The notes under the pieces were generated by a model. It was not told where the DNA came from, did not search any database, and saw only the letters and a list, made by a program, of their open reading frames with translations. 64,000 bases of DNA from a virus (Duplodnaviria; Caudoviricetes): IMG/VR virus record IMGVR_UViG_3300011989_000010, positions 1 through 64,000 of that record; one strand, written 5' to 3'. Both the position numbers and the translations under genes were made by a program. Every line of letters begins with the position of its first letter. Positions within the stretch are counted from its first letter, which is position 1. This document shows, piece after piece, positions 3,908 to 29,854 of this stretch.

Positions 3908-5107
3908 TTTTTTAAAAAATTTATACATTCATTAATTACTTTTTCTTTATTTTCCCTATAATCTTTTTCCCACACTACAAACTCTTTAAATCCATTTCTT
4001 TCAGCAATATTTTTTTTTATCTTCATCTATTTTCCAAAGTTCTTTAGCTGTCTTATCGTGAAATGGATTTGGTTTATCAGATGGCTTAAACATTTTTGGG
4101 TTAGCGTGATAAATATCTCCGTTAAATTCAATGAATTTTCTTTTATTCAAATCACAGAAATCGTACCTATAGTAAAAATTATTGTCATTTTTTAAAGTAT
4201 ATTCTCTATTTTTATTTTCATAAAAAACAAAATCTTTTTCTTCTTCTGGATATTTTTTCAATATTTCGTCAAAAAGTTCTTGAGATATTTTGGAACAGCC
4301 TAGTTGATGAAAGCCTGTTTTGTTTAGGCTATCTTGCCATTTTTCTTGCCTTTTCTTCCATCTTTTTAGCCCTTCATTTTCTCCGTATTTTTTTATGCAC
4401 TTTTTAAGTGAAAATGTACTTTGCGATTCGGAAATCTTTTCTTTAGCCTCATTTTCAGAATAGCCTTTTTTAAGCCAATATTCTATGCACTTGACACTAT
4501 TTTTTCTACGTTCATTTTTACTTTTTGATGCATATCTTTTAGCAAGTTCTGTTTGATATTCAGATATTTTTTTTTCAGCCTCATTTTTAGAATAGCCTCT
4601 TTTAAGCCAGTATTCAACACACCAAATGCTTCTTTCTCTAAAGAATTTATTAGAATCTATGCCAAGTGATTCTATATATTTTTTGTTAACTATTGGTCCT
4701 TTACCAGCAGCTTTTTTACCCCTTTCAGATTGCATTTTTGATATTATTTCTTTCCCTTCATTTTCAGAATAACCTTTTTTTAGCCAATATTCTATACACA
4801 GCTTATTACGCTCCTTCATATATTCGTTAATGAAGTCTTCATCAAACCCACGTTCTAATAGTCCTTCACGAGAATTATGCCAATGCTTGATGAATGGAAT
4901 TTTTTTAATAACATCTTTTATTAATGTTAATTTGTTTATTTTTCCATCATTTGAACAATAGTAATCAAAGCAATCTTTTAATGCGTTTATTATTTTTTGA
5001 TTTTTAAAGTTTAGTAGTGGATTAAATGACTTTAATAGTTCAACAAATTCATTAAATTTTAAATCTTCTCCAAATGTTTTTCTTTTTTTATCTAATAATA
5101 TTGTCAT
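3904..5107 (-). CDS. Free-standing putative homing endonuclease (3x CxEYWLKxGYSxNE repeats plus Vsr/PD-(D/E)xK-like domain), frameshifted at an A9 run near its 3' end
   Basis: YRYDFCDLNKRKFIEFNGDIYH nuclease motif. The ORF stops at 4001, but removing one A at 4010-4018 continues IAERNGFKEFVVWEKDYRENKEKVINECINFLKK to a TGA at 3904-3906. Confidence 0.75.
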
Positions 5108-14031: not shown

Positions 14032-15220
14032 ATGCCAAAAAAGAAAACCAAAGAAGAATTCATAAAATAGGCTGATATTATACATAATTATAAATACAAC
14101 TATTCAAAAGTAAATTATATTAATAACAAAACTAAGGTTTGCATTATTTGCCCTGAGCATGGAGAATTTTGGCAAACACCTGCTAATCATTTAAAAGGAG
14201 CAAATTGTCCTAAATGTGGCTGTGTATTAAGAATTAAAAACAATACAAAATCTTTTGAGTGGTTTTTAAAAAAAGCTAATGAAATACATCATAACAAATA
14301 CAAGTATGATAGCACAAACTATATAAATACTAGTACACCTATTATTATCACATGTCCTAAACATGGATATTTTGTACAAAAACCTTGTTGGCATTTAAAA
14401 GGTGATGGATGCCCTAAATGTGCTGGAAATTATGTTTTATCAACTGAAGAATTTATCAAAAAAGCAAAAAAAATTCATGGTAATAAATATGATTACTCTA
14501 AAGTTAAATATATAAAAAGTAAAGAGAAAATATGCATAATTTGTCCTGAACACGGAGAGTTTTGGCAAACACCAAATGAGCATTTAATGGGCAACGGTTG
14601 CAAAAAATGCGGATATAAAAAAATCAGTAATAAAGTAAGTTTAACCACACAAGTTTTTATTGAACGTGCTAAAAAAATACATGGAGATAAGTACGATTAC
14701 AGTAAAGTAAAGTATGTTAGTACACGTGTACCTATTGCTATTATCTGTAAAAAGCATGGAATTTTTTATCAAAAGCCAAATTATCATTTATCTGGTTGTG
14801 GCTGTCCTTTTTGTAATAAAAGTAAATTAGAAGAAGAAATGAAAGAGTTTTTAGAGGAAAAAAAGATTTCATAATTAAGTTGCAAGGAAACCCACGAATC
14901 TTCAGTTCGTGGGAGGTTGACTTATTTACCAATTCAGAAATAATTTTCTTGGAAAACAATCATTAGATTTTTATTTACCTGATTATAATATTGGCATTGA
15001 GTGCCAAGGAAGGCAACACTTCGAACCTATAGATTTTGGAGGAAAAGGAGAAAAATGGGCTAAAAAACAATTAATTGAATCGAAAGAAAGAGATAATAAA
15101 AAATTTGAACTTTGTAAAAAACAAGGAATAAAATTAATTTATTATTTAAATAATAGTAAATATTTCGGAAATTATACAAACGAAATTCATAGCCCAATCG
15201 AAATAAAAAAATTTATTTAA
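14032..15220 (+). pseudogene. Disrupted Zn-ribbon-repeat (DUF723-like) / Vsr-like homing endonuclease
   Basis: One frame from ATG 14032 with an in-frame TAG at 14068; four HxxKYxYSxxxY...C-x2-HG-x-F-x-Q-x-P-x2-HL-x-G-x2-C-x2-C repeats; the nuclease part (LDFYLPDYNIGIECQGRQHF) lies in another frame after a ~49-bp insert. Confidence 0.8.
14874..14922 (+). mobile_element. ~49-bp IS605-end-like hairpin insertion (MITE/solo end)
   Basis: taagttgcaaggaaacccacgaatcttcagttcgtgggaggttgac; removing it restores ...KKIS-Y-IYQFRNNFLGKQSLD; resembles the left end at 27413-27460. Confidence 0.7.
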
Positions 15221-15280
15221 AAATTTTTGCTATTTACAAAGTATTTATTATTAAATTAATATATTAATTAAGATTATAAA

Positions 15281-17017
15281 ATGAAAAATAATCAAGATGT
15301 AAATAGCCAACTTATAAGGATGAGAAACCTTATGAAGTATGGTATTGATGAAAGTAAGAAAACACCTTATACAGGGGTTGAATACGAAAAAGAGAACGGA
15401 GGTAAATTATACGGTATTGTGCGTGAAGGCACTAAATACTATATAAAAGTATCTCCTAATAAAAAAGGTAAGTTAGCTGAAAACTACGAATACATTGGCG
15501 GCTTTAGAAACAGAAAAGACAACGAATACAGCTCCTTTGCTGATGCGCAGAAAAACTTTGACCTTAAGATGATGTCAATCAACGAGGCTAATGCACCTGA
15601 GAAGAAGATTATGGTTGAATCTTGGAATCCAGATAAGCAAGAGGAGTTGACTGTAGAGTCTACTGATAGAATGAAGAGAGAAATCTCTCGTGAACGTCAG
15701 ATTATGTTGAATGCTACACGTATCAACGAAAAGAAGTCCCAAAACCTCGCTCCAATTTCAGAGACTTGCAAGGAAAACTGTGAGTCTGAGTGCGATGGTT
15801 ATGACTTTAAGGATGCTGAGAATCCAAAGGATTCTTTCAGAAAGAAGAAACACGAAGAGGGCGATGCTAAGAAAGCAAATCCTGACTATAAAGATGCTAA
15901 GATTGAAGAGGCTTCAGAGCCACTTGCTTGGCATAGTACAGGCAAGGATGCCGCAGGTAACATTGCTGATACTTATATGGACAAATCTCATGGAACAGAG
16001 ATTGGTGATTCCGCTCCTTTCAATGATGCAAAGGGTAAAGACATTGACGATAAGGAAGGTACTTCAACTACAGGCGAAATGAATAATGGTGTTGTAGAAG
16101 GTAAATCTATGGCAATGGATAACGGTGACAATCAGAATAGCCCTGCAGTTGGTGTTGGTAAGATTGGTGACACTGCCCCATTTGATGCTGAAGATGGTCG
16201 TCAGATTGATGAGGACATTGATGATATTAATGCTGATGCCGATGTAGAGGATGACGATACACCTGATGTAGACGATGATGTTACACCTGATGCTGAAGGC
16301 GGTGCTGATGACGATTTTGCTGATGATGCAGACCTTGGAGATGAGGGTGATTTCGGTGCTGACGATGAGGGTCTTGACGATGATGATGTTGCTGACGATG
16401 AAGGTCTTGACGATGATGATACTTTCGATGATGACGAGGATGATGATGTTGACCCTGACTTGCACGATTTGCAGGATCAGATTTCTGATTTAAGCGATAA
16501 ACTTGATGCAGTTCTTAATGCAGTTGGTGGCGATGAGCCAACAGTTAATGATTCTGAATATGAAGACGATGACCTTTATGATGACGATGATGATGAGCCA
16601 ATCGAAGATGGAATGGCTTTCGAATCTCGCAGACGCAATGGTGCTCAGGTATACGAATCTCGTGCTTTTAGACAGATGAGGATGAATGAGGCAAGACGTA
16701 ATCGTGCTCGTAGAATTAACGAGGAAGATGGTATGAAGCCATTCTCAGATGCAGGTCGTGTTCCAAGAGGCAATATGAACAAGTTGAATGACTTTGGTAA
16801 GCATCCTGCATATCAGAAGAAGGTAATGAATTTGCCTAGAACTTCAATGCAAGAGTTCCCAGGTTATTACGATATGAACGATGATAGCGTTTATAACGAG
16901 AATCCATATGGCGAGAAAATTGGCAGTGGTGCTCCTTTCGAGGTAGACCCTGAAGAAATAGAGAATACTATTGCTGAGTCAATTATGCGCCACTTGGGAA
17001 AAAAATACCTACGATAA
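15281..17017 (+). CDS. Large acidic head-associated/scaffold-like protein (short isoform)
   Basis: 578 aa with a D/E-rich low-complexity tract and many I/V/L-x-E sites; TATTTAT at 15242-15248. Confidence 0.7.
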   Translation: MKNNQDVNSQLIRMRNLMKYGIDESKKTPYTGVEYEKENGGKLYGIVREGTKYYIKVSPNKKGKLAENYEYIGGFRNRKDNEYSSFADAQKNFDLKMMSINEANAPEKKIMVESWNPDKQEELTVESTDRMKREISRERQIMLNATRINEKKSQNLAPISETCKENCESECDGYDFKDAENPKDSFRKKKHEEGDAKKANPDYKDAKIEEASEPLAWHSTGKDAAGNIADTYMDKSHGTEIGDSAPFNDAKGKDIDDKEGTSTTGEMNNGVVEGKSMAMDNGDNQNSPAVGVGKIGDTAPFDAEDGRQIDEDIDDINADADVEDDDTPDVDDDVTPDAEGGADDDFADDADLGDEGDFGADDEGLDDDDVADDEGLDDDDTFDDDEDDDVDPDLHDLQDQISDLSDKLDAVLNAVGGDEPTVNDSEYEDDDLYDDDDDEPIEDGMAFESRRRNGAQVYESRAFRQMRMNEARRNRARRINEEDGMKPFSDAGRVPRGNMNKLNDFGKHPAYQKKVMNLPRTSMQEFPGYYDMNDDSVYNENPYGEKIGSGAPFEVDPEEIENTIAESIMRHLGKKYLR

Positions 17018-17544
17018 CTGAAAAGTATGTTTTAAATACTGGCATACCAAAACAGGATAGCACTCCTGATATGGGGATGCTGCCAGATGAAGGTGCTGAA
17101 GACCCAACGGCAGAAATGCCACCTATGGATGATATGAATGGTGGTTTACCACCAACACCTCCAAATGGAGTTGATGCTCCTGACACTGGTGATGGTATGC
17201 AAGATAACCAAGAAGATGATGATGAAGGCATTGACATCTATAATAGCTTGCCAGTTGAAAAGAAGAGTGCAGCTATTAAGTATATGAAGAGTATGCAAGA
17301 TGATGACGAAGATGCTGAATCAAACTCTAATGGTGGAAATGAAGGCGGTGCTCCTGAAATGCCTATGGAATCCAAATCATATATAGAAAAGTTAGTAACT
17401 GAAATTGCTAATGGAATTATAAGTGATTTTGATATGAATGACAGAGAAGGCATTAAGGGAACTAAGCGTGATGAAAAACAAATCACAAATAAAAGGCTTA
17501 GTAACGGAAGAGGTACTATGAATCCTTTTGTTAGTGGCAGATAA
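16996..17544 (+). CDS. -1 frameshift extension of the 15281 protein (ORF track start 17071)
   Basis: Frame open from 16978; slippery G GGA AAA AAA at 16996-17005, just before the upstream TAA at 17015. Confidence 0.6.
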   Translation, partial: GKKIPTITEKYVLNTGIPKQDSTPDMGMLPDEGAEDPTAEMPPMDDMNGGLPPTPPNGVDAPDTGDGMQDNQEDDDEGIDIYNSLPVEKKSAAIKYMKSMQDDDEDAESNSNGGNEGGAPEMPMESKSYIEKLVTEIANGIISDFDMNDREGIKGTKRDEKQITNKRLSNGRGTMNPFVSGR

Positions 17545-17547
17545 TAT

Positions 17548-17580
17548 TAAGGGGGAGTCGTTAAGACTTCCCTTTTTTCT
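17548..17580 (+). terminator. Intrinsic terminator
   Basis: aagggggagtc...gacttccctttttt. Confidence 0.7.
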
Positions 17581-17615
17581 TTTATAAAATATTTATATTA
17601 AAATTTATTTCACAT

Positions 17616-18047
17616 ATGAGAAAAATTATTTTTGAAAAGAGGCAATTAAGACTTAAAGAGGAAGACATCAACATACAGTCTAAATCTTTAAATACACAAC
17701 CAGATAAAAAGACTGAGGTTAATGTTGACCCTGTTTCATCACAAGCAGGCTCACCTAATTTGGCTAATGATATTAATAACGCAAAGCAGAAAGACCCTAA
17801 TGCACAAATTTATACATTTAATCCGTCTACATATGCTGACAAAAATAAGTCACAAAACCCAACAACGATTAATGTTCAAGCAAACGATGGCGTTGATTTG
17901 TCAAACACTTTAAGTGACGCTATGAAGACCAATCCACAAGTGGCACAAGCAGTTAATGCAGGTAATGCAATGGTAAAGGCTGATTTGAAAGCAGAATCAA
18001 TTAATTTTACTAAAAAGGAATTAGATGAATTTTTAATAAATCTTTAG
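17616..18047 (+). CDS. Hypothetical protein with MRKIIFE leader
   Basis: 143-aa ORF; TATTTAT at 17590-17596. Confidence 0.7.
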   Translation: MRKIIFEKRQLRLKEEDINIQSKSLNTQPDKKTEVNVDPVSSQAGSPNLANDINNAKQKDPNAQIYTFNPSTYADKNKSQNPTTINVQANDGVDLSNTLSDAMKTNPQVAQAVNAGNAMVKADLKAESINFTKKELDEFLINL

Positions 18048-18048
18048 C

Positions 18049-20202
18049 ATGAAGAAGATTATTTTATCAGAAAATAAGTTAAATATTATAAAGGAAAACA
18101 TAAACGACATTATGGCGAATAAGTTGCCTGAGTATGTTTATAAATCAGTCAAGAAACATAACACTTCCTTGGGTGATTGTCCTGCATTTCCACCTTCTCA
18201 TGATTATGATTTTGATTATAAGGTTTTAAAAAGAAGATATGCTGAAATCATTGATGAAATGAATTCTTATGGGCTACCTTTAGATGAGGTAAAGGCTGAG
18301 AATCTTCTTTCTAAATTAATGAGTGAGGCAATTAAAAAGGAGACACCAATACGGCCGCAACTTAATAAATTAACTGAAAATGTTGTTAATGAGTTATTTG
18401 CAGTTCCTGCTGAGACAGTTAATCTTACTTGCGAACTTAAGGATGAGATTGAAGCTAACAAGTCTTTAAGGATATTACCTGAAGATGATGTAAATGACAG
18501 TGACTCATATGTTTTCTCAGATGTAAGTGAAATAAACCAAGTTGATGATATTGTTAAGCAAAGACGTTTTGTTGATTCTTTGATACAGGGTTATGCTATG
18601 ATTGCCTCAAGATATGAAGATTTATATTCAGAGTATTTTGAAACACATGGATTTAGTGATTTATTGTCTCTTTATAACAAAATTAATGCTTTAAATGATT
18701 ACTTGGTGTTTGTCAAGAAAGAAAAAATTGATAAAAAGAATCCAAGTTTAATTTCATATGTTGGTGTACATTTAGGACACGGAAACAACAAGACTATAAT
18801 CAGATCACAAGGTTTAATTTTCCCTTATCTTTTAAGGGAAACTATCAGAGGATTCATGGAATTATTCTCTTCACATGGATTACCTGAAGATAATCAAAAG
18901 GCTCAAATGATAATCAAAAGAGCAGATTTCACAATGGCTGAACCTTGGGACATTCGTTTTGGAAAGACTTTATGGGAAATGATGTTTGGTAAAGATAAAA
19001 TAAAGCCAAATATGATACCATATTTCTTTGCTGATTTTTGCTCGTTAGATACATCTGAGTTCTTCGGTTTAAGTCAGGAACTTTTGGCTAAGACCAAGAA
19101 GGGTAAATCTTATATTGAAAAAACAATAAGTGATATTTCAAACAACATTGATTATCAAGCATTTTTAAAGAATATTCAACAAAAGAACGTAGATTCATCA
19201 ATGATTACTGATGGATATATGACTGCTGATGATTTGGATAATTATCAAATTTCAGAAGAAGATAACATCGAAGAAAATCAAGAGAATGAGTACCTTGATA
19301 AAACACACGGAATGCCTTTAAAACGATATTTGCAAGAACCAGAAGAACTTGCTGATGAATATTTAATTCAAGACTACGCATATGACATACCTGAATTCTT
19401 CAATAATGATAGAGATGCTATTATGGAGTTGTCTGATGAAGAATTGGATATGCTTGAAGCATATAAAAACAATCAGGCGGATGAAGACGATTTGTTAGAT
19501 ATTTTGGAAAATCATCCTGATATAAAAAAAGCATTTGGCCGTTTTTGCAGAGGCATAGCTCGTGAATATAATAGGGGTGCTCGTTATATATACGATTACA
19601 ATCAAGATGTGTATTCAAACAATCAGTGGCTTATACATTTCACCCCTGACCCTGCTGAGATTGCTATGAATGGCTTCACTAAGGGAACACAAGATGTGGA
19701 AGAACTTGGCGTAACACACGGAAGTCAAAGACATGAAGAAGGATATAATTTTGCATTTATTGCTGATAAGGCAACTAACGCAGAAGCAAGATATTACTTA
19801 GGGAATGACTGCTATGGTAGACTAGATGATAACGCAGGCGCAGTTATGTTTAAAGCTGATGGTGTTGAAGCGTATCACGGAGGTGATAATCAAGACCAAG
19901 TTATATTCTGGGGACCAAGTGCAAGAAACATCATACCTATATATCACGGAAACGTTGAAGAATTGTCTTATGTAAGTTGGGATTATGATGATATTGAAAA
20001 TCCTGATAAATTCTATAAAAATAGAGGTGACACCAACTGTTGGTATATTTTAGGCAAAAATAATAATCTACTATATTGTAATGAAAATATACGTAAAATT
20101 ATAACGTGGGTAAAGAACAATTATTTCCAATATCGTAATGAATTAATTAATTATACAAATGCGAAAAACGATTTTTGGAGACCACGAAGAAAAAATAGAT
20201 GA
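18049..20202 (+). CDS. Two-domain protein with MKKIILSE leader; C-terminal domain possibly ADP-ribosyltransferase-like
   Basis: 717 aa; C-terminal WLIHFT..GF..GYNFAF..VMFKAD..QDQVIFW pattern. Confidence 0.55.
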   Translation: MKKIILSENKLNIIKENINDIMANKLPEYVYKSVKKHNTSLGDCPAFPPSHDYDFDYKVLKRRYAEIIDEMNSYGLPLDEVKAENLLSKLMSEAIKKETPIRPQLNKLTENVVNELFAVPAETVNLTCELKDEIEANKSLRILPEDDVNDSDSYVFSDVSEINQVDDIVKQRRFVDSLIQGYAMIASRYEDLYSEYFETHGFSDLLSLYNKINALNDYLVFVKKEKIDKKNPSLISYVGVHLGHGNNKTIIRSQGLIFPYLLRETIRGFMELFSSHGLPEDNQKAQMIIKRADFTMAEPWDIRFGKTLWEMMFGKDKIKPNMIPYFFADFCSLDTSEFFGLSQELLAKTKKGKSYIEKTISDISNNIDYQAFLKNIQQKNVDSSMITDGYMTADDLDNYQISEEDNIEENQENEYLDKTHGMPLKRYLQEPEELADEYLIQDYAYDIPEFFNNDRDAIMELSDEELDMLEAYKNNQADEDDLLDILENHPDIKKAFGRFCRGIAREYNRGARYIYDYNQDVYSNNQWLIHFTPDPAEIAMNGFTKGTQDVEELGVTHGSQRHEEGYNFAFIADKATNAEARYYLGNDCYGRLDDNAGAVMFKADGVEAYHGGDNQDQVIFWGPSARNIIPIYHGNVEELSYVSWDYDDIENPDKFYKNRGDTNCWYILGKNNNLLYCNENIRKIITWVKNNYFQYRNELINYTNAKNDFWRPRRKNR

Positions 20203-22088
20203 CTATGATTATAGATGCTAACGAAATGGCGGCTGAGTACATCAAATCTTATCAAGACAAATCAAGAATTTATTTTATTGAGAAGTATTTGAGTACGTTC
20301 AACGCAGCAGTAGGAAAGAAAACACCTTTCATTTGTTTTCCACGTCAGAAAGTTTTTCTGAGAACATTGGCAAAGGTGAGAAACATTGTTTCAATTAAAC
20401 CTCGTCAGTGTGGCATCACAACTTTGACAAGCGCATGGGCAACTGCTCAGTGTGTGTTTGCACCTGAGGATGCTCCTGAAACTATACTTTGTGTAGGTAA
20501 CAAACTTGATCTTGCTAATCAGTTGATTACAAAGATACGTGACTTCCTCACACAAGTACCAAGATGGTATTGGGGTGATGACTACTATTCACCAGACCCT
20601 AAATCAGATAAAAACATTAAATCTATCTTCATCAAAGATAGTAAATCAGAACTTGAGTTATTCAACGGATGCAGAATTGTAGCACGTTCATCAGGTGAAA
20701 ATGCAGCCCGTGGTATCTCAGCAGTATCAATTCTTATTCTTGATGAGGCAGGGTTTATTGAGAATGGTAAGGCAGTTTATGCCACTTGTGCGGCTTGTAT
20801 GGCTTCAAACCCTAACTCAAAGACTGTAATGGTGTCAACGCCAAATGGACACGATGAACTTTACTACAACACCTATAAGCAGGCTTTAGCGCACGAGAAT
20901 AACTTTACCGCAGTTCAGTTTAGATGGTATCAAGACCCTCGTTATAACAAGAATCTTAAATGGTTTAAAAAAGGTAAGGATAGCGAAAAGGTTAAGTGGT
21001 TTTATGAGCCGACACTTGATGCTGAAGGTACTGTGAAGTACGATGAGGAGCATTGGGAAAAAATGGTACAGGATGGTTGGACTCCACGTTCTCCTTGGTA
21101 CGATGAAATGTGTAAGTCTTTCAACAACGACTCTATGAAAATTGCTCAGGAGTTGGATGTGTCATTCCAAGGTTCTGCTAACAACGTTGTTGCGCCTGAA
21201 TTCATTGAGCAACAAAGCAATTTGAATGTAAGAGAGCCTTTAAGTGATTTTAAAGACCCAATGAACGATGAAACTTGGTTCTGGAAGAGACCAATTGACG
21301 GACATAGGTATATTCTGGGATGTGATCCTTCCCGTGGAGTTTCAGCCGATAGGACTGCAATTGAAATCATTGATATGGATGGTGAGGATGAAAATGGCTT
21401 GCCTATTATTGAGCAGGTAGGTGAATACGTAGGCAAAAAACTTGGTGATGATATTGGTGGTATGGTATATCAATATGCGAACCTTTATAATGAGGCTTAT
21501 GTGGTAGTCGATTGCACAGGTGGTCAAGGTGATGCCCTAATTCTTACTATGATTCAATTGGGATATAAGAATTTCTATTATGAGGATGGAAATCAGAAAA
21601 CATATACCGTTCAGAATCAGTCAGATAAACCTTTGAATTTTTCTGATAGACTACCAGGTTTCCACTTCCAAGGAAATAGATACCCTGTACTTGCAAGTTT
21701 TGCAGGTATGGTGCGTTCAAATGAGTTTAAAATTCGTTCAACACGTGTAATAAACGAACTTGATACTTGGATTTTTGAAGGCGAGACAGGTAGAATGAAC
21801 CATCAGGAAGGTTCTCACGATGATACAATTTGTGCGCTTGCTATGGCTTTATTCGTAATGCGTTATACTTATAACAAATTAGAGGAATCAAAACATAAAG
21901 ACCAAGCAATTCTCAATGCTTATATGATGGGTGGGGCTATCAGTGCCAATAGAAATAGAATTAAAGATGACAAGCCAATCACACCAAAGGGTGGCTTACC
22001 TTTCTACAATGAAAAAATATTGTCAAAAACTAACAATGGCTTAAATAATCAAGGAGCATATCTTTGGTTGTTCTCAGGAATGTATTAA
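20199..22088 (+). CDS. terL: Terminase large subunit (T4 gp17-like)
   Basis: KPRQCGITT (Walker A), ILILDEAGFIE (Walker B), VSTPNG (motif III), RNase H-like ILGCDPSRG and HDDTICALA. Confidence 0.93.
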   Translation: MTMIIDANEMAAEYIKSYQDKSRIYFIEKYLSTFNAAVGKKTPFICFPRQKVFLRTLAKVRNIVSIKPRQCGITTLTSAWATAQCVFAPEDAPETILCVGNKLDLANQLITKIRDFLTQVPRWYWGDDYYSPDPKSDKNIKSIFIKDSKSELELFNGCRIVARSSGENAARGISAVSILILDEAGFIENGKAVYATCAACMASNPNSKTVMVSTPNGHDELYYNTYKQALAHENNFTAVQFRWYQDPRYNKNLKWFKKGKDSEKVKWFYEPTLDAEGTVKYDEEHWEKMVQDGWTPRSPWYDEMCKSFNNDSMKIAQELDVSFQGSANNVVAPEFIEQQSNLNVREPLSDFKDPMNDETWFWKRPIDGHRYILGCDPSRGVSADRTAIEIIDMDGEDENGLPIIEQVGEYVGKKLGDDIGGMVYQYANLYNEAYVVVDCTGGQGDALILTMIQLGYKNFYYEDGNQKTYTVQNQSDKPLNFSDRLPGFHFQGNRYPVLASFAGMVRSNEFKIRSTRVINELDTWIFEGETGRMNHQEGSHDDTICALAMALFVMRYTYNKLEESKHKDQAILNAYMMGGAISANRNRIKDDKPITPKGGLPFYNEKILSKTNNGLNNQGAYLWLFSGMY

Positions 22089-22205: not shown

Positions 22206-25200
22206 ATGGCAAGAAAATACACAATTTTTCAGAACATAGATAGAGCCTTTAGTGGCAATTGGAATGCTGACGCATCATCACCACATATCAATTCATACGA
22301 TATGTCAACTGCTGACAAGAGTATTCTATACAGAACCACTAACAAAGATGATTATGAAAGTAAAAAGCTAGAACTTCAGCAGAATGCTTACTTAAAGGAT
22401 AGATGGGTAAAGGCTAATGTCGATTTGTCCGTAAGCGCTTATGCAGGGCTTAACAATGTTAAGTTAATGTATCGTGATGCTGATTTAATGGATGCATTCC
22501 CTGAGATTGGTGCAGCATTGGATATTGTTACAGAAGAGAGTACCATTACATCTGACAAGGGAATGATTGTTAATGTATATTCTAAATCTGATAGAATTAA
22601 ATCTATACTTGAAGACTTATTCGTTAATAGATTGAATATTCAAGTTACTGCGCCAATGGTTGTCAGGGCAATGTGCAAATATGGCAATCAGTTTATGCTT
22701 CTTGATATTGACAATAAGTTGGGTGTCAAGGGTTGGAAACAATTACCTGTTTTTAACGTTGAAAGAATTGAAAATGGTATTGCTAATCCTTATGGTGCTA
22801 TTACTACTCAGTACAATAATACAAACAATATTGATACTTCAACAAAGTTCATTTGGGTAAACGAAAACAATTCTCAAGTACCTTTCAGAAATTGGCAGAT
22901 TGCACACTTTAGATTGCTGACCAACTCATTGTATTTACCGTATGGTTGTTTGGTTGGTGATACAAGAATTGAAACAGAATTAGGCTATAAAGAAATACAA
23001 AATATACATATTGGTGATAAAGTTTGGACGTTTAATTTGGCAACTCAGCAAAGAGAGTTGTCAACAGTTACCATGCAAATGAATAAAGGCGAAAAAGATG
23101 TTTATTACGTAGGTACTAAACATCATTCAATAGAAGGAACATCTGACCATAAGTTGTTGATATTTGATAAATCTAATAAAAAATTTAAATATAAAGAGAT
23201 TAAAGATATTCAAACTGATGATTTATTGGTTACTTTTGATGGTGTTAAAAATGAGACAAAAAAAATAAAAATAGATAAATCTGATTTAAAAGATTTCGAG
23301 CACGGTAAAAAATCACTAAAATGGTGGGATGATTATATCAAATATATTCCTGAATACATTACAGAGGATTTTGCTAAACTTTTCGGTTTTATGCTTGGTG
23401 ATGGATGGGTAAGTCATTCTATGAATGTAATGTTTGCCCTTGGTGAGTACAACACTTTAAATGAAGAATATATAAAGTTGTTAGAAAAATATTCAGGTAA
23501 AAAGATTTCATTTCTTTCACAAAAAAAGAATTCTAATAAAAAGCTTAAATATCACACAGCTTTCGTAACATCTAAAATGTTGGCAACTATTTTAAAAAGA
23601 ATGGGTTTTTTAGGTGATTGTTATACAAAAAGAATACCTTCATGGGTTTTTGAAGCAAATGCTGAAATTAAAAAATCTTTCTTAAAAGGTTTAATTGATG
23701 CTGATGGGTCAATAAGTATAATATCTAAAGACAGTTTTGGGTATACTATTGAATTAGCTAATGAAGAATTGGTTAAAGATATTAAAACTCTTGTAATGTC
23801 TTTAGGGTTAAAATGTGGAAATGTACATAAAAGAGATAGATTAGGTGTTGTTTCAAAAAATAAAGATGGTGATAGTATAATTGTAAAACATTATAGTTAT
23901 TATATTAATTTTTGTAATAAAGAATTGCATCAAGTTAAAAGAATTACACCGCATATAGATTCCATTAAATTAGAAAAAATCAAAAATGTTAAACACATTG
24001 GCCAGAAAGAAACTTTTGACATTACTGTTGATAATGACAATTCTAATTTCTTTGCAAACGGTATTGTGACCCATAACTGTTCATATCTGAACGGGGCGAG
24101 ACGGCACTGGCGAATGCTAAGCCTCATGGAGGACTTAATGCTGATATATCGTCTTGAGCGTTCTATTGAAAGACGTGTCTATAAAATTTACGTTGGTGCA
24201 ATTGATGATGCCGATGTCCAAGCATACGTAGAAAACATTGCAAACAATTTTAAGAGGACACCTATTATAGATCCTATGACAGGGCAGCTAGATTTAAGGA
24301 AGAATATCCTTTCGTGCGATCAAGATATTTTTATTCCTGTACGTGACCAAAATGCACCTACACCTATTGATACTTTGTCAGCCGCTCAGAATTTGACTGC
24401 AATGGATGACATTAAGTTTGTTCAGGATAAGGTTTGCACTGCGTTGAGAATCCCTAAGACTTTCTTGAACTTTGAGGAAGCGCAAGGAAATGGAAATAAC
24501 CTTGCTTTGGAGGATATACGTTTCACACGTACAGTTAATAGAATTCAACAGGCTTTCTTGATGGAGTTGACAAAGGTTGCAAGTATTCACCTTTATCTTT
24601 TAGGCTTTACTGATGACCTTACAAACTTCAATCTTACGATGAACAACCCATCAACTCAGGCTGAACAACTTGAAATTGATAACCTTCAGAAGAAGATTAC
24701 TGCTGCACGTGATGCAATATCAGACCCAGGTAATGGTATTCCAATCATGTCTCAAACAAGGGCATTGAAGGAGATTATGAAATGGTCAGAAAAGGATATT
24801 AAAGATAACCTTGAAGAAATTCGTCTTGAAAAGGGTATCGCTGCCGAACTTGAAAAAACATCGCAAATCATCAAGAGAACTGGTTTATTTGATACCGTTG
24901 ATAGAATGTACGGAGAACCAGGTGCTGAATACCAAGATGATGTTCAGCAACAAGGAGACCAAATGGGCGGAGGAGGTCTCGGAGGAGGCGGAGGCGCTCC
25001 AATGGGCGGAGGTGACTTCGGTTCAGACCTTGATGACTTAGGTGCTCCTGATAGTGACGAGAATGGTGATATTGCAGGTGCTGAAGGCTCAGAACCAACT
25101 GCTGATATGGAAAGTGGTACTGACACAGGAGGTGGTGATGAGACAGAAGGTAATCCAATGGAATCACGTAGAGGCAGAAAGCCAATTCTTGCTGAAGCAA

Positions 25201-25427
25201 AACGAAAAATGTATAAAAAACTAATCAAAGAATCAGAACAAAAGGCTGACCAATTATTCTCACAATATCTAAAACGTTTGGATGAGGCAAACGAAAAGAA
25301 GAAACAGGAAACTTCAATTGAAAAGGCAGACATTTATGATAAATCATTAATGATTAATGAAGAGTTTAACAAAATGTTAAATGGACTTGATAAAAAGTTA
25401 AATGAAGATAACGAAAAGGCGGATTAA
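22206..25427 (+). CDS. Portal protein (T4 gp20-like) containing an intein
   Basis: FPEIGAALDIVTEE, IAHFRL, LSLMEDLMLIYRLERSIERRVYKIYVG, DIFIPVR, DDIKFVQDKVCTALRIP; gp20-like acidic tail. Confidence 0.92.
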   Translation: MARKYTIFQNIDRAFSGNWNADASSPHINSYDMSTADKSILYRTTNKDDYESKKLELQQNAYLKDRWVKANVDLSVSAYAGLNNVKLMYRDADLMDAFPEIGAALDIVTEESTITSDKGMIVNVYSKSDRIKSILEDLFVNRLNIQVTAPMVVRAMCKYGNQFMLLDIDNKLGVKGWKQLPVFNVERIENGIANPYGAITTQYNNTNNIDTSTKFIWVNENNSQVPFRNWQIAHFRLLTNSLYLPYGCLVGDTRIETELGYKEIQNIHIGDKVWTFNLATQQRELSTVTMQMNKGEKDVYYVGTKHHSIEGTSDHKLLIFDKSNKKFKYKEIKDIQTDDLLVTFDGVKNETKKIKIDKSDLKDFEHGKKSLKWWDDYIKYIPEYITEDFAKLFGFMLGDGWVSHSMNVMFALGEYNTLNEEYIKLLEKYSGKKISFLSQKKNSNKKLKYHTAFVTSKMLATILKRMGFLGDCYTKRIPSWVFEANAEIKKSFLKGLIDADGSISIISKDSFGYTIELANEELVKDIKTLVMSLGLKCGNVHKRDRLGVVSKNKDGDSIIVKHYSYYINFCNKELHQVKRITPHIDSIKLEKIKNVKHIGQKETFDITVDNDNSNFFANGIVTHNCSYLNGARRHWRMLSLMEDLMLIYRLERSIERRVYKIYVGAIDDADVQAYVENIANNFKRTPIIDPMTGQLDLRKNILSCDQDIFIPVRDQNAPTPIDTLSAAQNLTAMDDIKFVQDKVCTALRIPKTFLNFEEAQGNGNNLALEDIRFTRTVNRIQQAFLMELTKVASIHLYLLGFTDDLTNFNLTMNNPSTQAEQLEIDNLQKKITAARDAISDPGNGIPIMSQTRALKEIMKWSEKDIKDNLEEIRLEKGIAAELEKTSQIIKRTGLFDTVDRMYGEPGAEYQDDVQQQGDQMGGGGLGGGGGAPMGGGDFGSDLDDLGAPDSDENGDIAGAEGSEPTADMESGTDTGGGDETEGNPMESRRGRKPILAEAKRKMYKKLIKESEQKADQLFSQYLKRLDEANEKKKQETSIEKADIYDKSLMINEEFNKMLNGLDKKLNEDNEKAD
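22947..24077 (+). mobile_element. Contiguous intein (377 aa) with LAGLIDADG homing endonuclease in the portal gene
   Basis: LPYG|CLVGDTRIET...GTSDHKLL (block B)...FGFMLGDGW...FLKGLIDADG...TFDITV...NGIVTHN|C. Confidence 0.93.
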
Positions 25428-27412: not shown

Positions 27413-28748
27413 CCAAGAAAACCCACAAGTCTTCAGGTTGTTGGATGAATTGGCTATTAATAAATATAATTTAAAAAATATAACTATATATTTATTTAAT
27501 TCATATTTTTTGTATATATTTGTATATATAAAATAACTTTTATGAGGTACAAGGCTTATAAATATAGAATTTATCCTAATAAGAAACAGCAGGAACTGAT
27601 AAACAAACATATCGGTTGCTGCCGCTATGTCTATAACCTTTGCCTTGAAAAGAAAATTAATGCTTATAAGACTTCGAAGAAAAGCATTTCATGCTTTGAA
27701 CTTATTAAACTACTTCCTGCTCTAAAGAAAGAGCAAGAAACGTCTTTCCTTAAAGAAGTAAACTCTCTATCACTTCAGGCTGCAATTCGTAACCTTGATA
27801 GTGCGTACCAAAGGTTCTTTAAGGAGAAGAAAGGTTTCCCAAAGTTCAAGTCAAAAAGGAATGCAAGGCAATCTTTTCAAATCGTACAGAATACTACTGT
27901 TGACTTTGACAAGAAGAAGGTTTATATTCCCAAATTTAAAGATGGCATTAAATGTAGATTTCATAGGTTCTTTGATGGGAAGATTAAAACTTCTACCATA
28001 TCAAGAACATCAACAGGTAGGTATTATATATCCATTTTAGTACAGTTTGATGAAGACAATCCAAGTAAGAAGCCCATTGACGAGAACAAAGCAGTGGGAA
28101 TCGACTTGGGCATCAAGACTTTTGCCACGCTATCCAATGGAGAAGAAATACCAAATCCAAAGAATTTAAAGAATGCATTGGTCAGACTGAAAAGACTTCA
28201 GAAAAGGTTATCAAAAAAGACCAAGGGTTCAAACAATCGTGATAAGGCAAGAAAGGTTCTTGCTTGTCAGTATGAAAGAGTGACCAATAGGAGAAATGAC
28301 TTCCTTGAAAAAGTCACTCATCAATTGGTTACAAATTACGATACCATTTGTTTGGAAACCTTGTCTGCAAGGAATATGATGAAAAATCATCATCTTGCGC
28401 AAGCCTTGTCAGATATTGCCATTGGTAGGTTTAATGAACTCATTGAGCAAAAAGCCGAATGGTACGGTGTAAACATCTTGCGTATTGGTAGATTTGAACC
28501 AAGTAGTAAGATGTGTTCCTGCGGCTATGTCTATAGAGATTTGAAGTTATCTCAACGTGTTTGGACTTGTCCAAATTGTGGAAGGACAAACCAGAGAGAC
28601 TTGCTTGCGGCCAACAACATAAAGGCCTTTGCATTCAATAAACGGCATAATACCGCAGGAACTGCGGAAATTCACGCTTGTGGAGATATGAACCTCAAAG
28701 AGGTTCAGCCCAAGAAGCCCATAAGTCTTTAGCTTATGGGTAGTTCAC
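27411..28748 (+). mobile_element. IS200/IS605-family (IS1341-type, tnpB-only) element
   Basis: Left hairpin atagccaa..cccacaagtcttcaggttgttgg..ttggctat after TTAT (27407-27410); right hairpin gcccataagtctttagcttatgggtagttcac; no tnpA in the window; left boundary inferred. Confidence 0.85.
27542..28732 (+). CDS. tnpB: TnpB RNA-guided endonuclease
   Basis: HTH MRYKAYKYRIYPN..GCCRYVYN; RuvC I GIDLG, RuvC II CLETL, Zn finger CSCG/CPNCG, RuvC III RDLLAANNI. Confidence 0.95.
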   Translation: MRYKAYKYRIYPNKKQQELINKHIGCCRYVYNLCLEKKINAYKTSKKSISCFELIKLLPALKKEQETSFLKEVNSLSLQAAIRNLDSAYQRFFKEKKGFPKFKSKRNARQSFQIVQNTTVDFDKKKVYIPKFKDGIKCRFHRFFDGKIKTSTISRTSTGRYYISILVQFDEDNPSKKPIDENKAVGIDLGIKTFATLSNGEEIPNPKNLKNALVRLKRLQKRLSKKTKGSNNRDKARKVLACQYERVTNRRNDFLEKVTHQLVTNYDTICLETLSARNMMKNHHLAQALSDIAIGRFNELIEQKAEWYGVNILRIGRFEPSSKMCSCGYVYRDLKLSQRVWTCPNCGRTNQRDLLAANNIKAFAFNKRHNTAGTAEIHACGDMNLKEVQPKKPISL

Positions 28749-28906: not shown

Positions 28907-29614
28907 TTAATTTTTCAAGATTCGTTGAATTTTTTGTATTTTTTCATTTATAACATTTTTTTTAGGATTCATTTCTTTACTTTCTACCCAAGATTCAAGA
29001 CCTTCATGGCCATTCATGGTAATATACGCATTATTTGTTGACGGGTCTGAAACTATGTCCCAGCATATTAATTCAAAGTCGGACCCAACTATATAAGTTC
29101 CCAATTTATTTTCAACTGAGCCTACACCTCTTGAAGACACTCCAATCTTATAACCATTAAGCAAAAGATTTGCTGCCATATCACCCATAGTTGAAACAAT
29201 GCCTTCGTTTACGAAACCTTGTGAAATGTTCAATTCCATCTTGCCAACGAGGGTATGACCTTCCCAATGTAATTCAATAATATTGTGAGAAATTCTGCCC
29301 AAGTCAATTGTAGATTCTGCTGGATGATTTAATTCACCATATGCTCGATGCTCAGCAATTTTCTGCTGATAAGCCTCAACTTGTCTTTTAAGTACATTTT
29401 CAGGGTAAATACGACCATTTGCATTCTTTATATCAAACTTCTGAAAAACTGCGTCAATTACAAATGGATAAGGTACGTGCCATCCACCATCAGCAACACC
29501 TTCCTTAATGGTTCTATTATTCCCTTCATTAAGTGAGATGTAGCCATCGTTATCTATAATAAGACCTGTACCTGTCTTACCCTTTTTTATTTCTACTAAT
29601 TCGTTTTTATCCAT
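28907..29614 (-). CDS. Prohead protease (T4 gp21-like)
   Basis: AVFQKFDIKNANGRIYP, GELNHP, ISHNI, IGVSSRGVGS, WDIVSDPS; likely start 29614 (MDKNELVE) after TATTTAT at 29633-29639. Confidence 0.92.
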   Translation of the reverse strand: MDKNELVEIKKGKTGTGLIIDNDGYISLNEGNNRTIKEGVADGGWHVPYPFVIDAVFQKFDIKNANGRIYPENVLKRQVEAYQQKIAEHRAYGELNHPAESTIDLGRISHNIIELHWEGHTLVGKMELNISQGFVNEGIVSTMGDMAANLLLNGYKIGVSSRGVGSVENKLGTYIVGSDFELICWDIVSDPSTNNAYITMNGHEGLESWVESKEMNPKKNVINEKIQKIQRILKN

Positions 29615-29854
29615 AATATGATATTTATAACTATAAATATATAATAAATATATCTTTGAAATTATAAAATTAGTGTAAATAAAAATCATTTTATATTTAT
29701 TACAGAGCAAGAAAACTAACTCAATAAATAAAAAATAGAAAAATCGCTGATATTATTAGGTTTTTTGAAGTATTTATTAATGATAAAAAATAATTTTTTT
29801 TGGTTTAGTAATATATTTATATATAAAATAACTTAACAATTCATTTTTTTCATA

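What the first reader, a model, noticed from the sequence alone, without database searches (positions are those of the whole stretch)
16990..17544. Probable -1 programmed ribosomal frameshift in the acidic 578-aa head-region protein
Seen: TTG GGA AAA AAA TAC CTA CGA TAA places a canonical X XXY YYZ heptamer (G GGA AAA) five codons before the stop. The -1 frame is open from 16978 to 17544 (GKKIPTITEKYVLNTG..DMGMLPDEG) with the same acidic/Pro style and no convincing independent start. The fusion would be about 754 aa. Known: phage -1 frameshifts typically occur in tail chaperones (lambda G-T, G GGA AAG) or capsid genes. Inference: two isoforms of an inner-head/scaffold-like protein at a fixed ratio.
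Basis: partly seen in the sequence, partly recalled or inferred. Interest (0 to 1): 0.72.

Follow-up and report, generated by a model that had tools for sequence, protein, structure and literature searches.

The report
Conserved frameshift extends phage head-module protein
A rumen jumbo phage makes a long and a short form of an acidic, disordered head-module protein by slipping one base back at GGGAAAAAAA; about 80 relatives keep this frame break, so it is real programmed recoding, though whether the ribosome or the RNA polymerase slips is still open.

Summary
ORF 15281-17017 (578 aa) ends ...TTG GGA AAA AAA TAC CTA CGA TAA. The -1 frame is open from 16978 to 17544, and a -1 shift gives a 754-aa fusion.

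A heptamer or an A7 run alone is at chance level in this AT-rich contig. The comparative evidence is decisive:
- About 80 distinct relatives (39-98% identity, cattle, sheep and one human gut metagenome, contigs up to 412 kb) all break frame at an A-rich tract 0-23 nt before the stop.
- All continue into a conserved 150-200-aa ORF that has no start codon.
- That ORF shows third-position substitution bias upstream of any ATG.
- No in-frame fused form was found anywhere.

The mechanism is unresolved. The window's clade keeps in-phase G_GGA_AAA, and one member has only A4, which favours ribosomal -1 frameshifting here. Most other clades carry A9-A10, and 12 need +1 rather than -1, which points to transcriptional slippage or ribosome sliding there.

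The protein is acidic and mostly disordered. It lies in a T4-type head module (gp20 portal, gp21 protease, gp23 capsid) and carries conserved [LIV]-x-E motifs, one directly after the junction. A prohead-core or internal-protein role is plausible but inferred.

This is a new member of a known kind.

The parts
15281..17017 (+). 0-frame ORF of 578 aa. It is acidic and mostly disordered, with conserved N-terminal (1-150) and C-terminal (about 480-575) regions.
   Evidence: It has 888 homologues; all of the top 120 are 358-611 aa.
16996..17002 (+). G_GGA_AAA slippery heptamer, in X_XXY_YYZ phase.
   Evidence: It is conserved in the window, L029, L044, L102, L103, L104, L105, L107 and L109 (L108 has the same G GGA AAA after ATG). 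It is the only slippery element in L103.
16999..17005 (+). A7 run, equal to an A_AAA_AAA heptamer in phase. It is the homologue of the A6-A11 runs of relatives.
17015..17017 (+). 0-frame stop TAA. It is embedded in the -1-frame codons ATA ACT (the I-T of the I-T-E motif).
   Evidence: In relatives the stop lies 0-23 nt after the run.
17002..17544 (+). Trans-frame C-terminal extension of 180 codons plus stop, read in the -1 frame. It is Pro/Met/Gly/Asp-rich with conserved motifs (MPMES, GTKR.EK, NPF.S.R).
   Evidence: It is conserved from the first codon after the run. Third-position substitution bias is seen upstream of any ATG.
17014..17022 (+). I-T-E (ATA ACT GAA), a conserved [ILV]-x-E motif directly after the junction. 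It is a candidate cleavage site for the T4-type prohead protease.
   Evidence: Cleavage itself is inferred.
17071..17073 (+). First ATG in the -1 frame. It lies 22 codons inside the conserved extension and is not a conserved start.
17549..17585 (+). Terminator-like hairpin (11-bp stem plus T tract) directly after the extension ORF. It is the only + strand terminator-like site between 14900 and 17700.
28907..29710 (-). Context: T4 gp21-type prohead protease (Peptidase_S77).
   Evidence: E = 1.6e-22, above the curated cut-off.

Best explanation
Gene 15281-17017 and the start-less ORF that follows it are one recoded gene. Most decoding events stop at TAA 17015 and give the 578-aa acidic protein. 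In a minority the reading frame moves back one base on GGGAAAAAAA (16996-17005), and translation runs on to 17544. This gives a 754-aa isoform with a 180-residue Pro/Met/Gly/Asp-rich C-terminal extension.

In this window the most likely mechanism is ribosomal -1 tandem slippage on G_GGA_AAA and/or A_AAA_AAA, without a strong stimulator and hence probably at low efficiency.

Shown: the site and the two-frame architecture are conserved, the downstream frame is under coding selection upstream of any start codon, and no in-frame allele was found.

Inferred:
- The shift is ribosomal.
- The short form is the majority product.
- The protein is a component of the T4-type prohead core, or a packaged internal protein.
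- Its extension is separated by the gp21-type protease at the conserved [ILV]-x-E next to the junction.
For: 1. In-phase heptamers and an open -1 frame are present.

2. There are 72 distinct junctions from IMG/VR and metagenome contigs, plus 8 more from assemblies. All break frame at an A-rich tract 0-23 nt before the stop and continue in a 150-200-aa ORF.

3. The extension is conserved from the first codon after the run, while the first ATG lies 13-29 codons later. In the 17 codons around ERPTKLEIPNS, pairwise differences by codon position 1/2/3 are 1274/1222/3560. In the window's clade, TAT>TAC, GTT>GTC, TTA>CTA and ACT>ACA are synonymous in the -1 frame upstream of the ATG.

4. No fused form was found. 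The top 120 homologues of the upstream protein are 611 aa or shorter, although proteins up to 1012 aa were searched. All 25 hits of the extension in 1.84 billion representatives are 79-180 aa. Two searches restricted to longer proteins found nothing.

5. Four contigs from RNA libraries of two studies bridge both ORFs with no indel at the run. The only terminator-like site follows the extension ORF.

6. Evidence for a ribosomal shift in this clade:
- G_GGA_AAA is conserved, and L103 keeps only G_GGA_AAA with A4.
- Every short-run lineage is in the phase that tandem slippage needs: A4, A6 as A_AAA_AAC, A7 in two lineages, and A8.
- A_AAA_AAA-type heptamers are known ribosomal frameshift sites (PMC3711429).

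7. Internal contrast: a nuclease gene in the same window is also broken at an A9 run, but there the close relative L111 is in frame with A8. That is what an accidental homopolymer frameshift looks like.
Against: - No conserved stimulatory hairpin or pseudoknot lies 5-9 nt downstream, and there is no upstream element. Mean z of folding energy is -0.9 downstream and -0.4 upstream.
- In the wider family the modal runs are A9 (44 of 72) and A10 (22 of 72). This is the hybrid length at which bacterial RNA polymerase slips efficiently (PMC5009743; PMC3711429).
- 12 junctions need +1, which a -1 ribosomal shift cannot give, and the direction changed at least 3-5 times on the tree. The ancestral mechanism may therefore be transcriptional, and A7 may still allow some slippage. 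Potyvirus GA6 gives about 2%.
- L103 is known from only two contigs and could be a non-functional variant.
- No protein or raw-read RNA evidence exists for either isoform.
Confidence: 0.55

Rival explanations
1. Programmed transcriptional slippage. RNA polymerase (host or phage-encoded) adds one A at the A-tract, A7 to A8 here and A9 to A10 in most relatives. In the +1 clades it adds two As or drops one. Standard translation of the edited mRNA then gives the same 754-aa fusion.
For: - Run lengths in the family cluster at A9-A10 (66 of 72 junctions). This is the 9-10 bp RNA-DNA hybrid length at which slippage is efficient in vivo (PMC5009743 section 43; 'An, n>7' in PMC3711429).
- The synonymous sites inside the run are invariant. 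The Leu codon always ends in A and Lys is always AAA, so the run exceeds the 7 nt that a heptamer needs.
- Both -1 and +1 requirements occur, with at least 3-5 switches and never an in-frame state. In the +1 loci the +1 frame has TAA at the start of the run, so the shift must occur inside the run.
- No stimulator of ribosomal frameshifting was found.
- The dnaX family shows the same mix of A7-A10 runs.
Against: - The window has only A7 preceded by GGG, and L103 has only A4. At that length, slippage without a nascent-RNA stimulator is not expected, and no upstream hairpin was seen.
- All short runs are in the ribosomal heptamer phase, which slippage does not require.
- RNA-library contigs show the unedited A7, although contigs cannot show minority species.
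Confidence: 0.33
2. Two independent genes. The downstream ORF would be translated on its own from ATG 17071 or from a non-canonical or coupled start, and the heptamer would be coincidental.
For: - Gene callers annotate it that way everywhere.
- Heptamers and A7 runs are common by chance in this genome.
- A similar-looking heptamer-plus-overlap elsewhere in the contig is an ordinary gene overlap.
Against: - Amino-acid conservation and third-position bias start directly after the run, 13-29 codons before the first ATG.
- The position and kind of the first start codon are not conserved.
- There is no AT-rich leader like those before the real starts at 15281 and 17616.
- The A-tract and the nearby stop are conserved in all of about 80 relatives.
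Confidence: 0.05
3. The break is not programmed. It would be an assembly or sequencing error in a homopolymer, a decaying pseudogene, or DNA-level phase variation of the A-tract.
For: - Homopolymers are error-prone and mutable.
- L055 has A11 where its near-identical relatives have A9.
- A nuclease gene in the same window is broken by an A8-to-A9 change.
Against: - None of about 80 distinct junctions is in frame, where roughly one third would be expected under free length variation.
- Run length is stable within clades.
- The same A7 appears in independent DNA and RNA-library contigs.
- Both ORFs are under purifying selection.
- Even L055 jumps from A9 to A11 and so avoids the in-frame A10.
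Confidence: 0.04

Closest known systems
Phage lambda gpG/gpGT tail-assembly-chaperone frameshift (slip site G_GGA_AAG). It is conserved in dsDNA phage tail genes, with -1 in most and +1 or -2 in some (own knowledge; described in PMC5009743).
   Same: [quoted passage not shown]
- A 0-frame stop a few codons later.
- A start-less overlapping ORF and a minority fusion product.
- The direction of the shift varies between relatives.
   Different: - It is not in the tail module and is not a chaperone-sized pair. Here the upstream part is 578 aa, acidic and disordered, and lies beside the terminase, portal, protease and capsid genes.
- There is no sequence similarity.
- Most relatives use long A runs instead of a heptamer.
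Phage T7 capsid gene 10A/10B, and the capsid-gene frameshifts of Listeria phages A118 and PSA (own knowledge).
   Same: A head-module gene gets a C-terminal extension in a minority of products through a frameshift close to its stop.
   Different: In those cases the major capsid protein itself is extended. Here the capsid protein is a separate gp23-type gene at 31434-33416, and the recoded protein is an acidic, disordered protein of unknown role.
dnaX tau/gamma: E. coli A_AAA_AAG ribosomal -1 frameshift against Thermus thermophilus A9 transcriptional slippage, and the A7-A10 two-ORF dnaX genes of Chlorobi (PMC5009743; PMC3711429).
   Same: Homologous genes reach the same two-product outcome at an A-tract whose length varies between lineages. 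The mechanism probably switches between ribosome and polymerase.
   Different: In dnaX the shift truncates the protein; here it extends it. dnaX is a host replication gene and this is a phage structural-module gene. In E. coli dnaX strong stimulators are known; none was found here.
Potyvirus P3N-PIPO: slippage at GAAAAAA by the viral polymerase, about 2% (PMC4552492 and PMC5027478; PMC5009743).
   Same: A G followed by an A6-7 tract, a low-level single-A insertion, and a trans-frame C-terminal domain.
   Different: That is the RNA-dependent RNA polymerase of an RNA virus. Here a DNA-dependent polymerase would have to slip on A7.
T4 prohead-core and internal proteins (gp22, gp67, gp68, IPI-III, Alt) processed by gp21 after Glu (PMC5694885; the L/I-x-E consensus is from own knowledge).
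   Same: - An acidic protein in a gp20/gp21/gp23-type head module.
- Eleven conserved [LIV]-x-E motifs, against five for the reversed control motif.
   Different: - No detectable homology.
- It is more than twice as long as gp22 and lies upstream of the terminase.
- Neither processing nor presence in the virion has been shown.
- None of the T4 proteins is known to be frameshifted.

Membership tests
Programmed -1 ribosomal frameshift site (tandem slippage) | X_XXY_YYZ heptamer in the 0-frame phase | tested here: met
   G_GGA_AAA at 16996-17002 and A_AAA_AAA at 16999-17005. All short-run relatives are in phase.
Programmed -1 ribosomal frameshift site (tandem slippage) | Overlapping -1 ORF without its own start, under coding selection from the shift site onwards | tested here: met
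Programmed -1 ribosomal frameshift site (tandem slippage) | Phylogenetic conservation of the shift site and of the out-of-frame arrangement | tested here: met
   About 80 distinct junctions, none in frame. No fused homologues.
Programmed -1 ribosomal frameshift site (tandem slippage) | Stimulatory element: a downstream hairpin or pseudoknot at 5-9 nt, or an upstream SD-like sequence | tested here: not met
   No conserved structure; mean z is -0.9 downstream and -0.4 upstream. Genes here have no SD-like leaders. This element is not obligatory for low-efficiency sites.
Programmed -1 ribosomal frameshift site (tandem slippage) | Trans-frame protein made from unedited mRNA | not testable with these tools
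   Only Logan contigs were available, with no raw RNA reads and no proteomics.
Programmed transcriptional realignment (slippage) | Homopolymer of about 8-9 nt or more, or a shorter run with a nascent-RNA hairpin | tested here: not met
   The window has A7 and L103 has A4, with no upstream hairpin. The feature is met in 66 of 72 relatives, which have A9-A11.
Programmed transcriptional realignment (slippage) | Length heterogeneity of the run that is specific to RNA | tested here: inconclusive
   Four RNA-library contigs show the unedited run, but contigs drop minority variants.
Programmed transcriptional realignment (slippage) | No dependence on codon phase or on a single shift direction | tested here: inconclusive
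   In the family, 60 junctions need -1 and 12 need +1, and long runs start at codon position 1 or 3. In the window's clade all need -1 and all are in phase.
Phase-variable homopolymer (contingency) locus | ON (in-frame) and OFF alleles among close relatives, with run length unstable at the DNA level | tested here: not met
   No in-frame allele was found. Run length is stable within clades, with one A9/A11 pair.
T4-type prohead core / internal head protein | Encoded with gp20 portal, gp21 protease and gp23 capsid genes | tested here: met
   Portal_T4, Peptidase_S77, Gp23 and TerL.
T4-type prohead core / internal head protein | Sequence or structural homology to gp22, gp67, gp68, the IPs or Alt | tested here: not met
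   No Pfam, PHROG or PDB hit. The AF2 models are mostly disordered, with mean pLDDT 49 and 60.
T4-type prohead core / internal head protein | Processing by the prohead protease after Glu, and presence in proheads | not testable with these tools
   Only the motifs can be counted: 11 conserved [LIV]-x-E against 5 control motifs, plus one at the junction.
Lambda-type tail assembly chaperone G/GT | A small chaperone pair directly upstream of the tape-measure gene | tested here: not met
   The gene lies upstream of the terminase and portal genes, is 578 aa long, and has no tape-measure gene next to it.

The most novel reading that the evidence does not exclude
In this family of gut and rumen jumbo phages the same trans-frame fusion would be produced by polymerase slippage on an A9-A10 tract, and lineages would flip freely between needing +1 nt and needing -1 or +2 nt. 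The window's clade would have handed the job over to the ribosome on G_GGA_AAA. That would be a natural series showing a switch between transcriptional and translational recoding inside one phage structural gene. In addition, the conserved [ILV]-x-E at the junction would let the T4-type prohead protease release the frameshift-encoded peptide inside the head. The frameshift would then meter a protease-liberated cargo or assembly peptide.
Probability: 0.3. Interest if true: 0.78.

Novelty: new member of a known kind. Interest (0 to 1): 0.6.

Why it matters
- Annotation. In hundreds of gut and rumen jumbo-phage contigs the extension is called as a separate small hypothetical gene that starts at an arbitrary internal ATG or GTG. 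It is really the C-terminal part of a 750-aa isoform.
- Recoding biology. The family gives about 80 natural variants of one recoding site. They span A4 with G_GGA_AAA, A6 as A_AAA_AAC, and A7 to A11, with both -1 and +1 requirements and never an in-frame state. This is a ready-made series for asking when the ribosome and when the RNA polymerase does the slipping. It would probably concern a host without Shine-Dalgarno-led translation, as the SD-less leaders suggest.
- Head assembly. A counterpart of the T4 scaffold and core proteins has not been confirmed in giant phages (PMC5694885). An acidic, disordered, two-isoform protein carrying protease motifs in a T4-type head module is a candidate worth testing.

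Tried and rejected
- **Phage records.** tblastn of both ORFs against GenBank phage records gave no match. A single-protein scan of IMG/VR with the extension ORF found nothing. Relatives of the extension were reached only through the upstream gene.
- **Family and structure searches.** Pfam and PHROGs gave no family for either ORF. A PDB profile search gave no hit. The ESM Atlas gave only unnamed viral clusters at scores of 0.82 or less, which is the level of shuffled sequences.
- **Structure prediction.** AlphaFold2 with alignments gave mean pLDDT 49 (578 aa) and 60 (extension), mostly disordered. No fold search was run on such models.
- **RNA stimulators.** No conserved element was found. A small hairpin, GTCTTTGAAGAAAGAC, lies about 17 nt downstream in the FEERP clade. 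It is absent from the window's clade and from L006, L007 and L025, and may simply follow from the V-F-E-E-R-P codons.
- **Fused forms.** None was found. The two searches restricted to longer proteins are weak evidence by the tool's own statement.
- **RNA evidence.** Only Logan contigs were available. They bridge the site unedited but cannot show minority edited transcripts, transcript ends or expression level.
- **Phase variation, assembly error and independent initiation.** Considered and rejected; see the rival explanations.
- **Second heptamer case.** A heptamer with a long -1 ORF at G000 82747-83916 (-) is an ordinary overlap with a gene that has its own GTG start.
- **Nuclease control.** The A9 frame break in the nuclease gene 4001-5107 (-) is not conserved, because relative L111 is in frame.
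- **Tree.** The careful tree search did not finish, so the quick IQ-TREE tree was used.
Full report
**1. What is there**

The window is part of an 87,879-nt viral contig with about 33% G+C. ORF 15281-17017 (+, 578 aa) ends ...CAC TTG GGA AAA AAA TAC CTA CGA TAA.

Two overlapping X_XXY_YYZ heptamers are in phase: G_GGA_AAA at 16996-17002 and A_AAA_AAA at 16999-17005. The -1 frame is open from 16978 to 17544. The first start codon in that frame is the ATG at 17071.

A -1 shift on either heptamer, or one extra A in the mRNA, gives the same 754-aa protein, with the junction ...HLGKKIPTITEK.

**2. Is it more than chance?**

The motif alone is not.
- The contig has about 205 in-phase X_XXY_YYZ heptamers in 91 ORFs of 100 aa or more.
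- It has 23 A7 and 34 T7 runs, as a first-order Markov model predicts.
- A heptamer within 45 nt of a stop followed by a -1 extension of more than 100 codons occurs twice. The other case, outside the window, is a normal overlap with a gene that has its own GTG start.

The decision therefore rests on comparison with relatives.

**3. Comparative evidence**

*Sources.* The upstream protein found 28 loci in IMG/VR, 73 in metagenome contigs and 888 proteins. Eight further loci were fetched by exact protein look-up. They come from cattle and sheep gut or rumen metagenomes and one human gut assembly (L067), on contigs up to 412 kb.

*Shared architecture.* There are 72 distinct junction sequences plus the 8 extra loci. 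Every one has the same layout: an A-rich tract, a 0-frame stop 0-23 nt later, and a 150-200-aa ORF that continues in another frame.

*Shift needed.* Sixty junctions need -1 and twelve need +1. None is in frame.

*No fused form.*
- The top 120 homologues of the upstream protein are 358-611 aa, although the search covered 317-1012 aa.
- All 25 hits of the extension among 1.84 billion representatives are 79-180 aa.
- Two searches restricted to longer proteins, one with the single protein and one with the 67-sequence alignment, found nothing (weak evidence).

*Start-less coding.* The extension is conserved from the first codon after the run, with [IVL]-[NTS..]-E followed by VL.VP or FEERPTKLEIPNS. 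The first ATG lies 13-29 codons further on, at no fixed place. In 30 distinct nucleotide versions of the 17 codons around ERPTKLEIPNS, pairwise differences by codon position 1/2/3 are 1274/1222/3560. That stretch is therefore translated in the shifted frame upstream of any start codon. Within the window's own clade, the codons after the stop differ from L104 by four synonymous changes in the -1 frame.

*Transcription unit.* Four contigs from metatranscriptome libraries of two studies bridge both ORFs without an indel at the run. The only + strand terminator-like hairpin in 14900-17700 lies directly after the extension ORF, at 17549-17575.

*Internal control.* A nuclease gene in the same window (4001-5107, -) is also broken 9 nt before its stop, at an A9 run. 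Its 92%-identical relative L111 has A8 and is in frame. That is what an accidental homopolymer frameshift looks like, and it is the opposite of the pattern at 16999.

Together this establishes programmed recoding (about 0.9). It rules out assembly error, pseudogene, phase variation and independent initiation as main explanations.

**4. Mechanism**

Counts of run length, codon position of the first A, and shift needed:

| Run | First A at codon position | Shift needed | Junctions | Note |
|---|---|---|---|---|
| A9 | 3 | -1 | 41 | |
| A10 | 1 | -1 | 10 | |
| A10 | 3 | +1 | 10 | |
| A7 | 3 | -1 | 3 | |
| A9 | 1 | -1 | 3 | |
| A10 | 1 | +1 | 1 | |
| A8 | 3 | -1 | 1 | |
| A6 | 3 | -1 | 1 | L045, A_AAA_AAC |
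| A11 | 3 | +1 | 1 | L055; same flanks as A9 loci |
| A10 | 3 | -1 | 1 | |

A quick maximum-likelihood tree needs five changes between the -1 and +1 states, at least three of them forced by well-supported branches. The +1 clade L062/064/066/067/097 is stable at A10. In the +1 loci the target frame has TAA at the start of the run, so the shift must happen inside the run.

Points that favour transcriptional slippage, or ribosome sliding on poly(A) (PMC4363877), in the wider family:
- The run-length mode of 9-10 equals the RNA-DNA hybrid length of RNA polymerase, and is the length at which bacterial polymerase slips efficiently in vivo (PMC5009743; PMC3711429).
- Synonymous sites inside the run are invariant.
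- Both shift directions are used.
- No conserved stimulatory structure was found.

The window's clade differs. It has 11 rows on the tree with 99% support, and all need -1. It carries TTG GGA AAA followed by zero to five more As:
- A7 in the window, L029, L102, L105, L107 and L108;
- A8 in L044, L104 and L109;
- A9 without the GGG in L030 and L106;
- only A4 in L103, where G_GGA_AAA is the sole slippery element.

All short-run lineages are in the phase that tandem slippage needs: the window's clade, L016 with A7 and L045 with A6. If phase did not matter, three independent lineages all being in phase would have a chance of about 1 in 27.

For this window I therefore favour ribosomal -1 frameshifting (about 0.55) over transcriptional slippage (about 0.33). 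Both may contribute. All routes give the identical protein, so a junction peptide proves recoding but cannot name the mechanism.

**5. What the protein is**

*No known family.* No Pfam, PHROG or PDB family matches either part. The AlphaFold2 models are mostly disordered: mean pLDDT 49 for the 578-aa part, with a few helices and a small N-terminal sheet, and 60 for the extension, with three or four helices. The name 'RNA polymerase delta subunit' that JGI gives one homologue probably reflects only the acidic low-complexity region.

*Gene neighbourhood.* The neighbourhood is a T4-type head module:

| Window coordinates | Strand | Gene |
|---|---|---|
| 17616-18047 | + | 143-aa protein |
| 18049-20202 | + | 717-aa protein |
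| 20199-22088 | + | TerL |
| 22206-25427 | + | gp20-type portal with an intein |
| 27542-28732 | + | TnpB-like transposase |
| 28907-29710 | - | gp21-type prohead protease (Peptidase_S77, E = 1.6e-22) |
| 29855-31387 | + | 510-aa protein |
| 31434-33416 | + | gp23-type capsid protein |

*Protease motifs.* T4-type and giant-phage prohead proteases cut after Glu. They process core, scaffold and internal proteins (PMC5694885). The T4 consensus L/I-x-E is from my own knowledge. The upstream protein has 11 [LIV]-x-E motifs conserved in 80% or more of 81 homologues, against 5 for the reversed control motif. The extension has 2 against 0, and one of the two is the I-T-E directly after the junction.

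*Reading.* This fits an acidic prohead-core or packaged protein whose frameshift-encoded tail is cut off during maturation. That is inference only, at about 0.35.

**6. Comparison with known systems and novelty**

The architecture is that of classical phage frameshifts: lambda G/GT, with nearly the same heptamer, and T7 10A/10B. The spread of A-tract lengths recalls dnaX, where homologous genes use either ribosomal or transcriptional slippage.

I found no description of this gene family or of its recoding in the searched literature. All sources annotate the extension as a separate small gene.

I class it as a new member of a known kind. It has an unusually informative natural series of site variants.

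**7. Scores**

- Programmed recoding is real: about 0.9.
- Ribosomal -1 shift in this window: about 0.55.
- Transcriptional slippage: about 0.33.
- Interest: 0.6.

Noticed in passing
window 4001-5107 (-); A9 run at 4010-4018; L111:2480-2760: The nuclease gene between the split-intein halves is frameshifted at an A9 run 9 nt before its stop. The +1 frame carries the conserved C-terminus (...NIAERNGFKEFVVWEKDY...FLKK*), which ends in the ATGA overlap with the next gene. The 92%-identical relative L111 has A8 and is in frame. This is therefore a recent homopolymer mutation or an assembly error, perhaps partly rescued by slippage, and not conserved recoding.
   Followed up: yes
window 28907-29710 (-) and 27542-28732 (+): A T4 gp21-type prohead protease (Peptidase_S77, E = 1.6e-22) lies on the opposite strand inside the otherwise + strand head module. 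It is next to a TnpB/IS605-like transposase gene. An A8 run sits 49 nt before the protease stop.
   Followed up: partly
window 17616-17690 and 18049-18120: The 143-aa and 717-aa proteins downstream share a similar N-terminal leader (M-[RK]-K-I-I-x-x-E-x-x-L-x-x-x-K-E-x-I-N) that contains an [LI]-K-E motif. These look like T4-style capsid-targeting sequences cut by the prohead protease.
   Followed up: no
window 17011-17029; L102-L109, L030, L044: In the window's clade the roughly 19 nt ACGATAACTGAAAAGTA after the slip site are invariant in 11 sequences of 55-98% protein identity. This includes three synonymous sites beyond the 0-frame stop, while the next four codons vary synonymously. There may be an extra nucleotide-level constraint, such as a weak hairpin with a GAAA loop or a stop-codon context.
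   Followed up: partly
L005, L008, L011, L023 and others, about 17 nt after the A run: The FEERPTKL clade has a 6-8-bp hairpin, G(G)TCTTTGAAGAAAGAC(C), downstream of the run. It is kept with a C-to-T (G-U) change in L008 but is lost in L006, L007 and L025. It is too far from the run for a classical frameshift stimulator and may be a by-product of the V-F-E-E-R-P codons.
   Followed up: partly
L055 against L012, L048 and L056: Near-identical strains differ by A11 against A9 at the site, which skips the in-frame A10. This is the only within-clade run-length polymorphism seen.
   Followed up: partly
G000:C1:82747-83916 (-), locus L114: A homing-endonuclease-like gene with four repeats of a ...GDKYDYSK...CP.HGEFWQ... 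module plus a Vsr-like end sits between two paralogous small genes. Its in-phase A_AAA_AAG and the overlapping -1 ORF are an ordinary gene overlap, because the downstream gene has its own GTG start.
   Followed up: yes
window 22206-25427: The T4-type portal gene carries an intein with a LAGLIDADG homing-endonuclease domain (Pfam Intein_splicing, LAGLIDADG_3 and Hom_end hits between residues 255 and 624).
   Followed up: partly
L067 (ENA ORMS01000222, human gut metagenome): A member of the stable A10 / +1 clade comes from a human gut assembly, so the phage family is not confined to ruminants.
   Followed up: no
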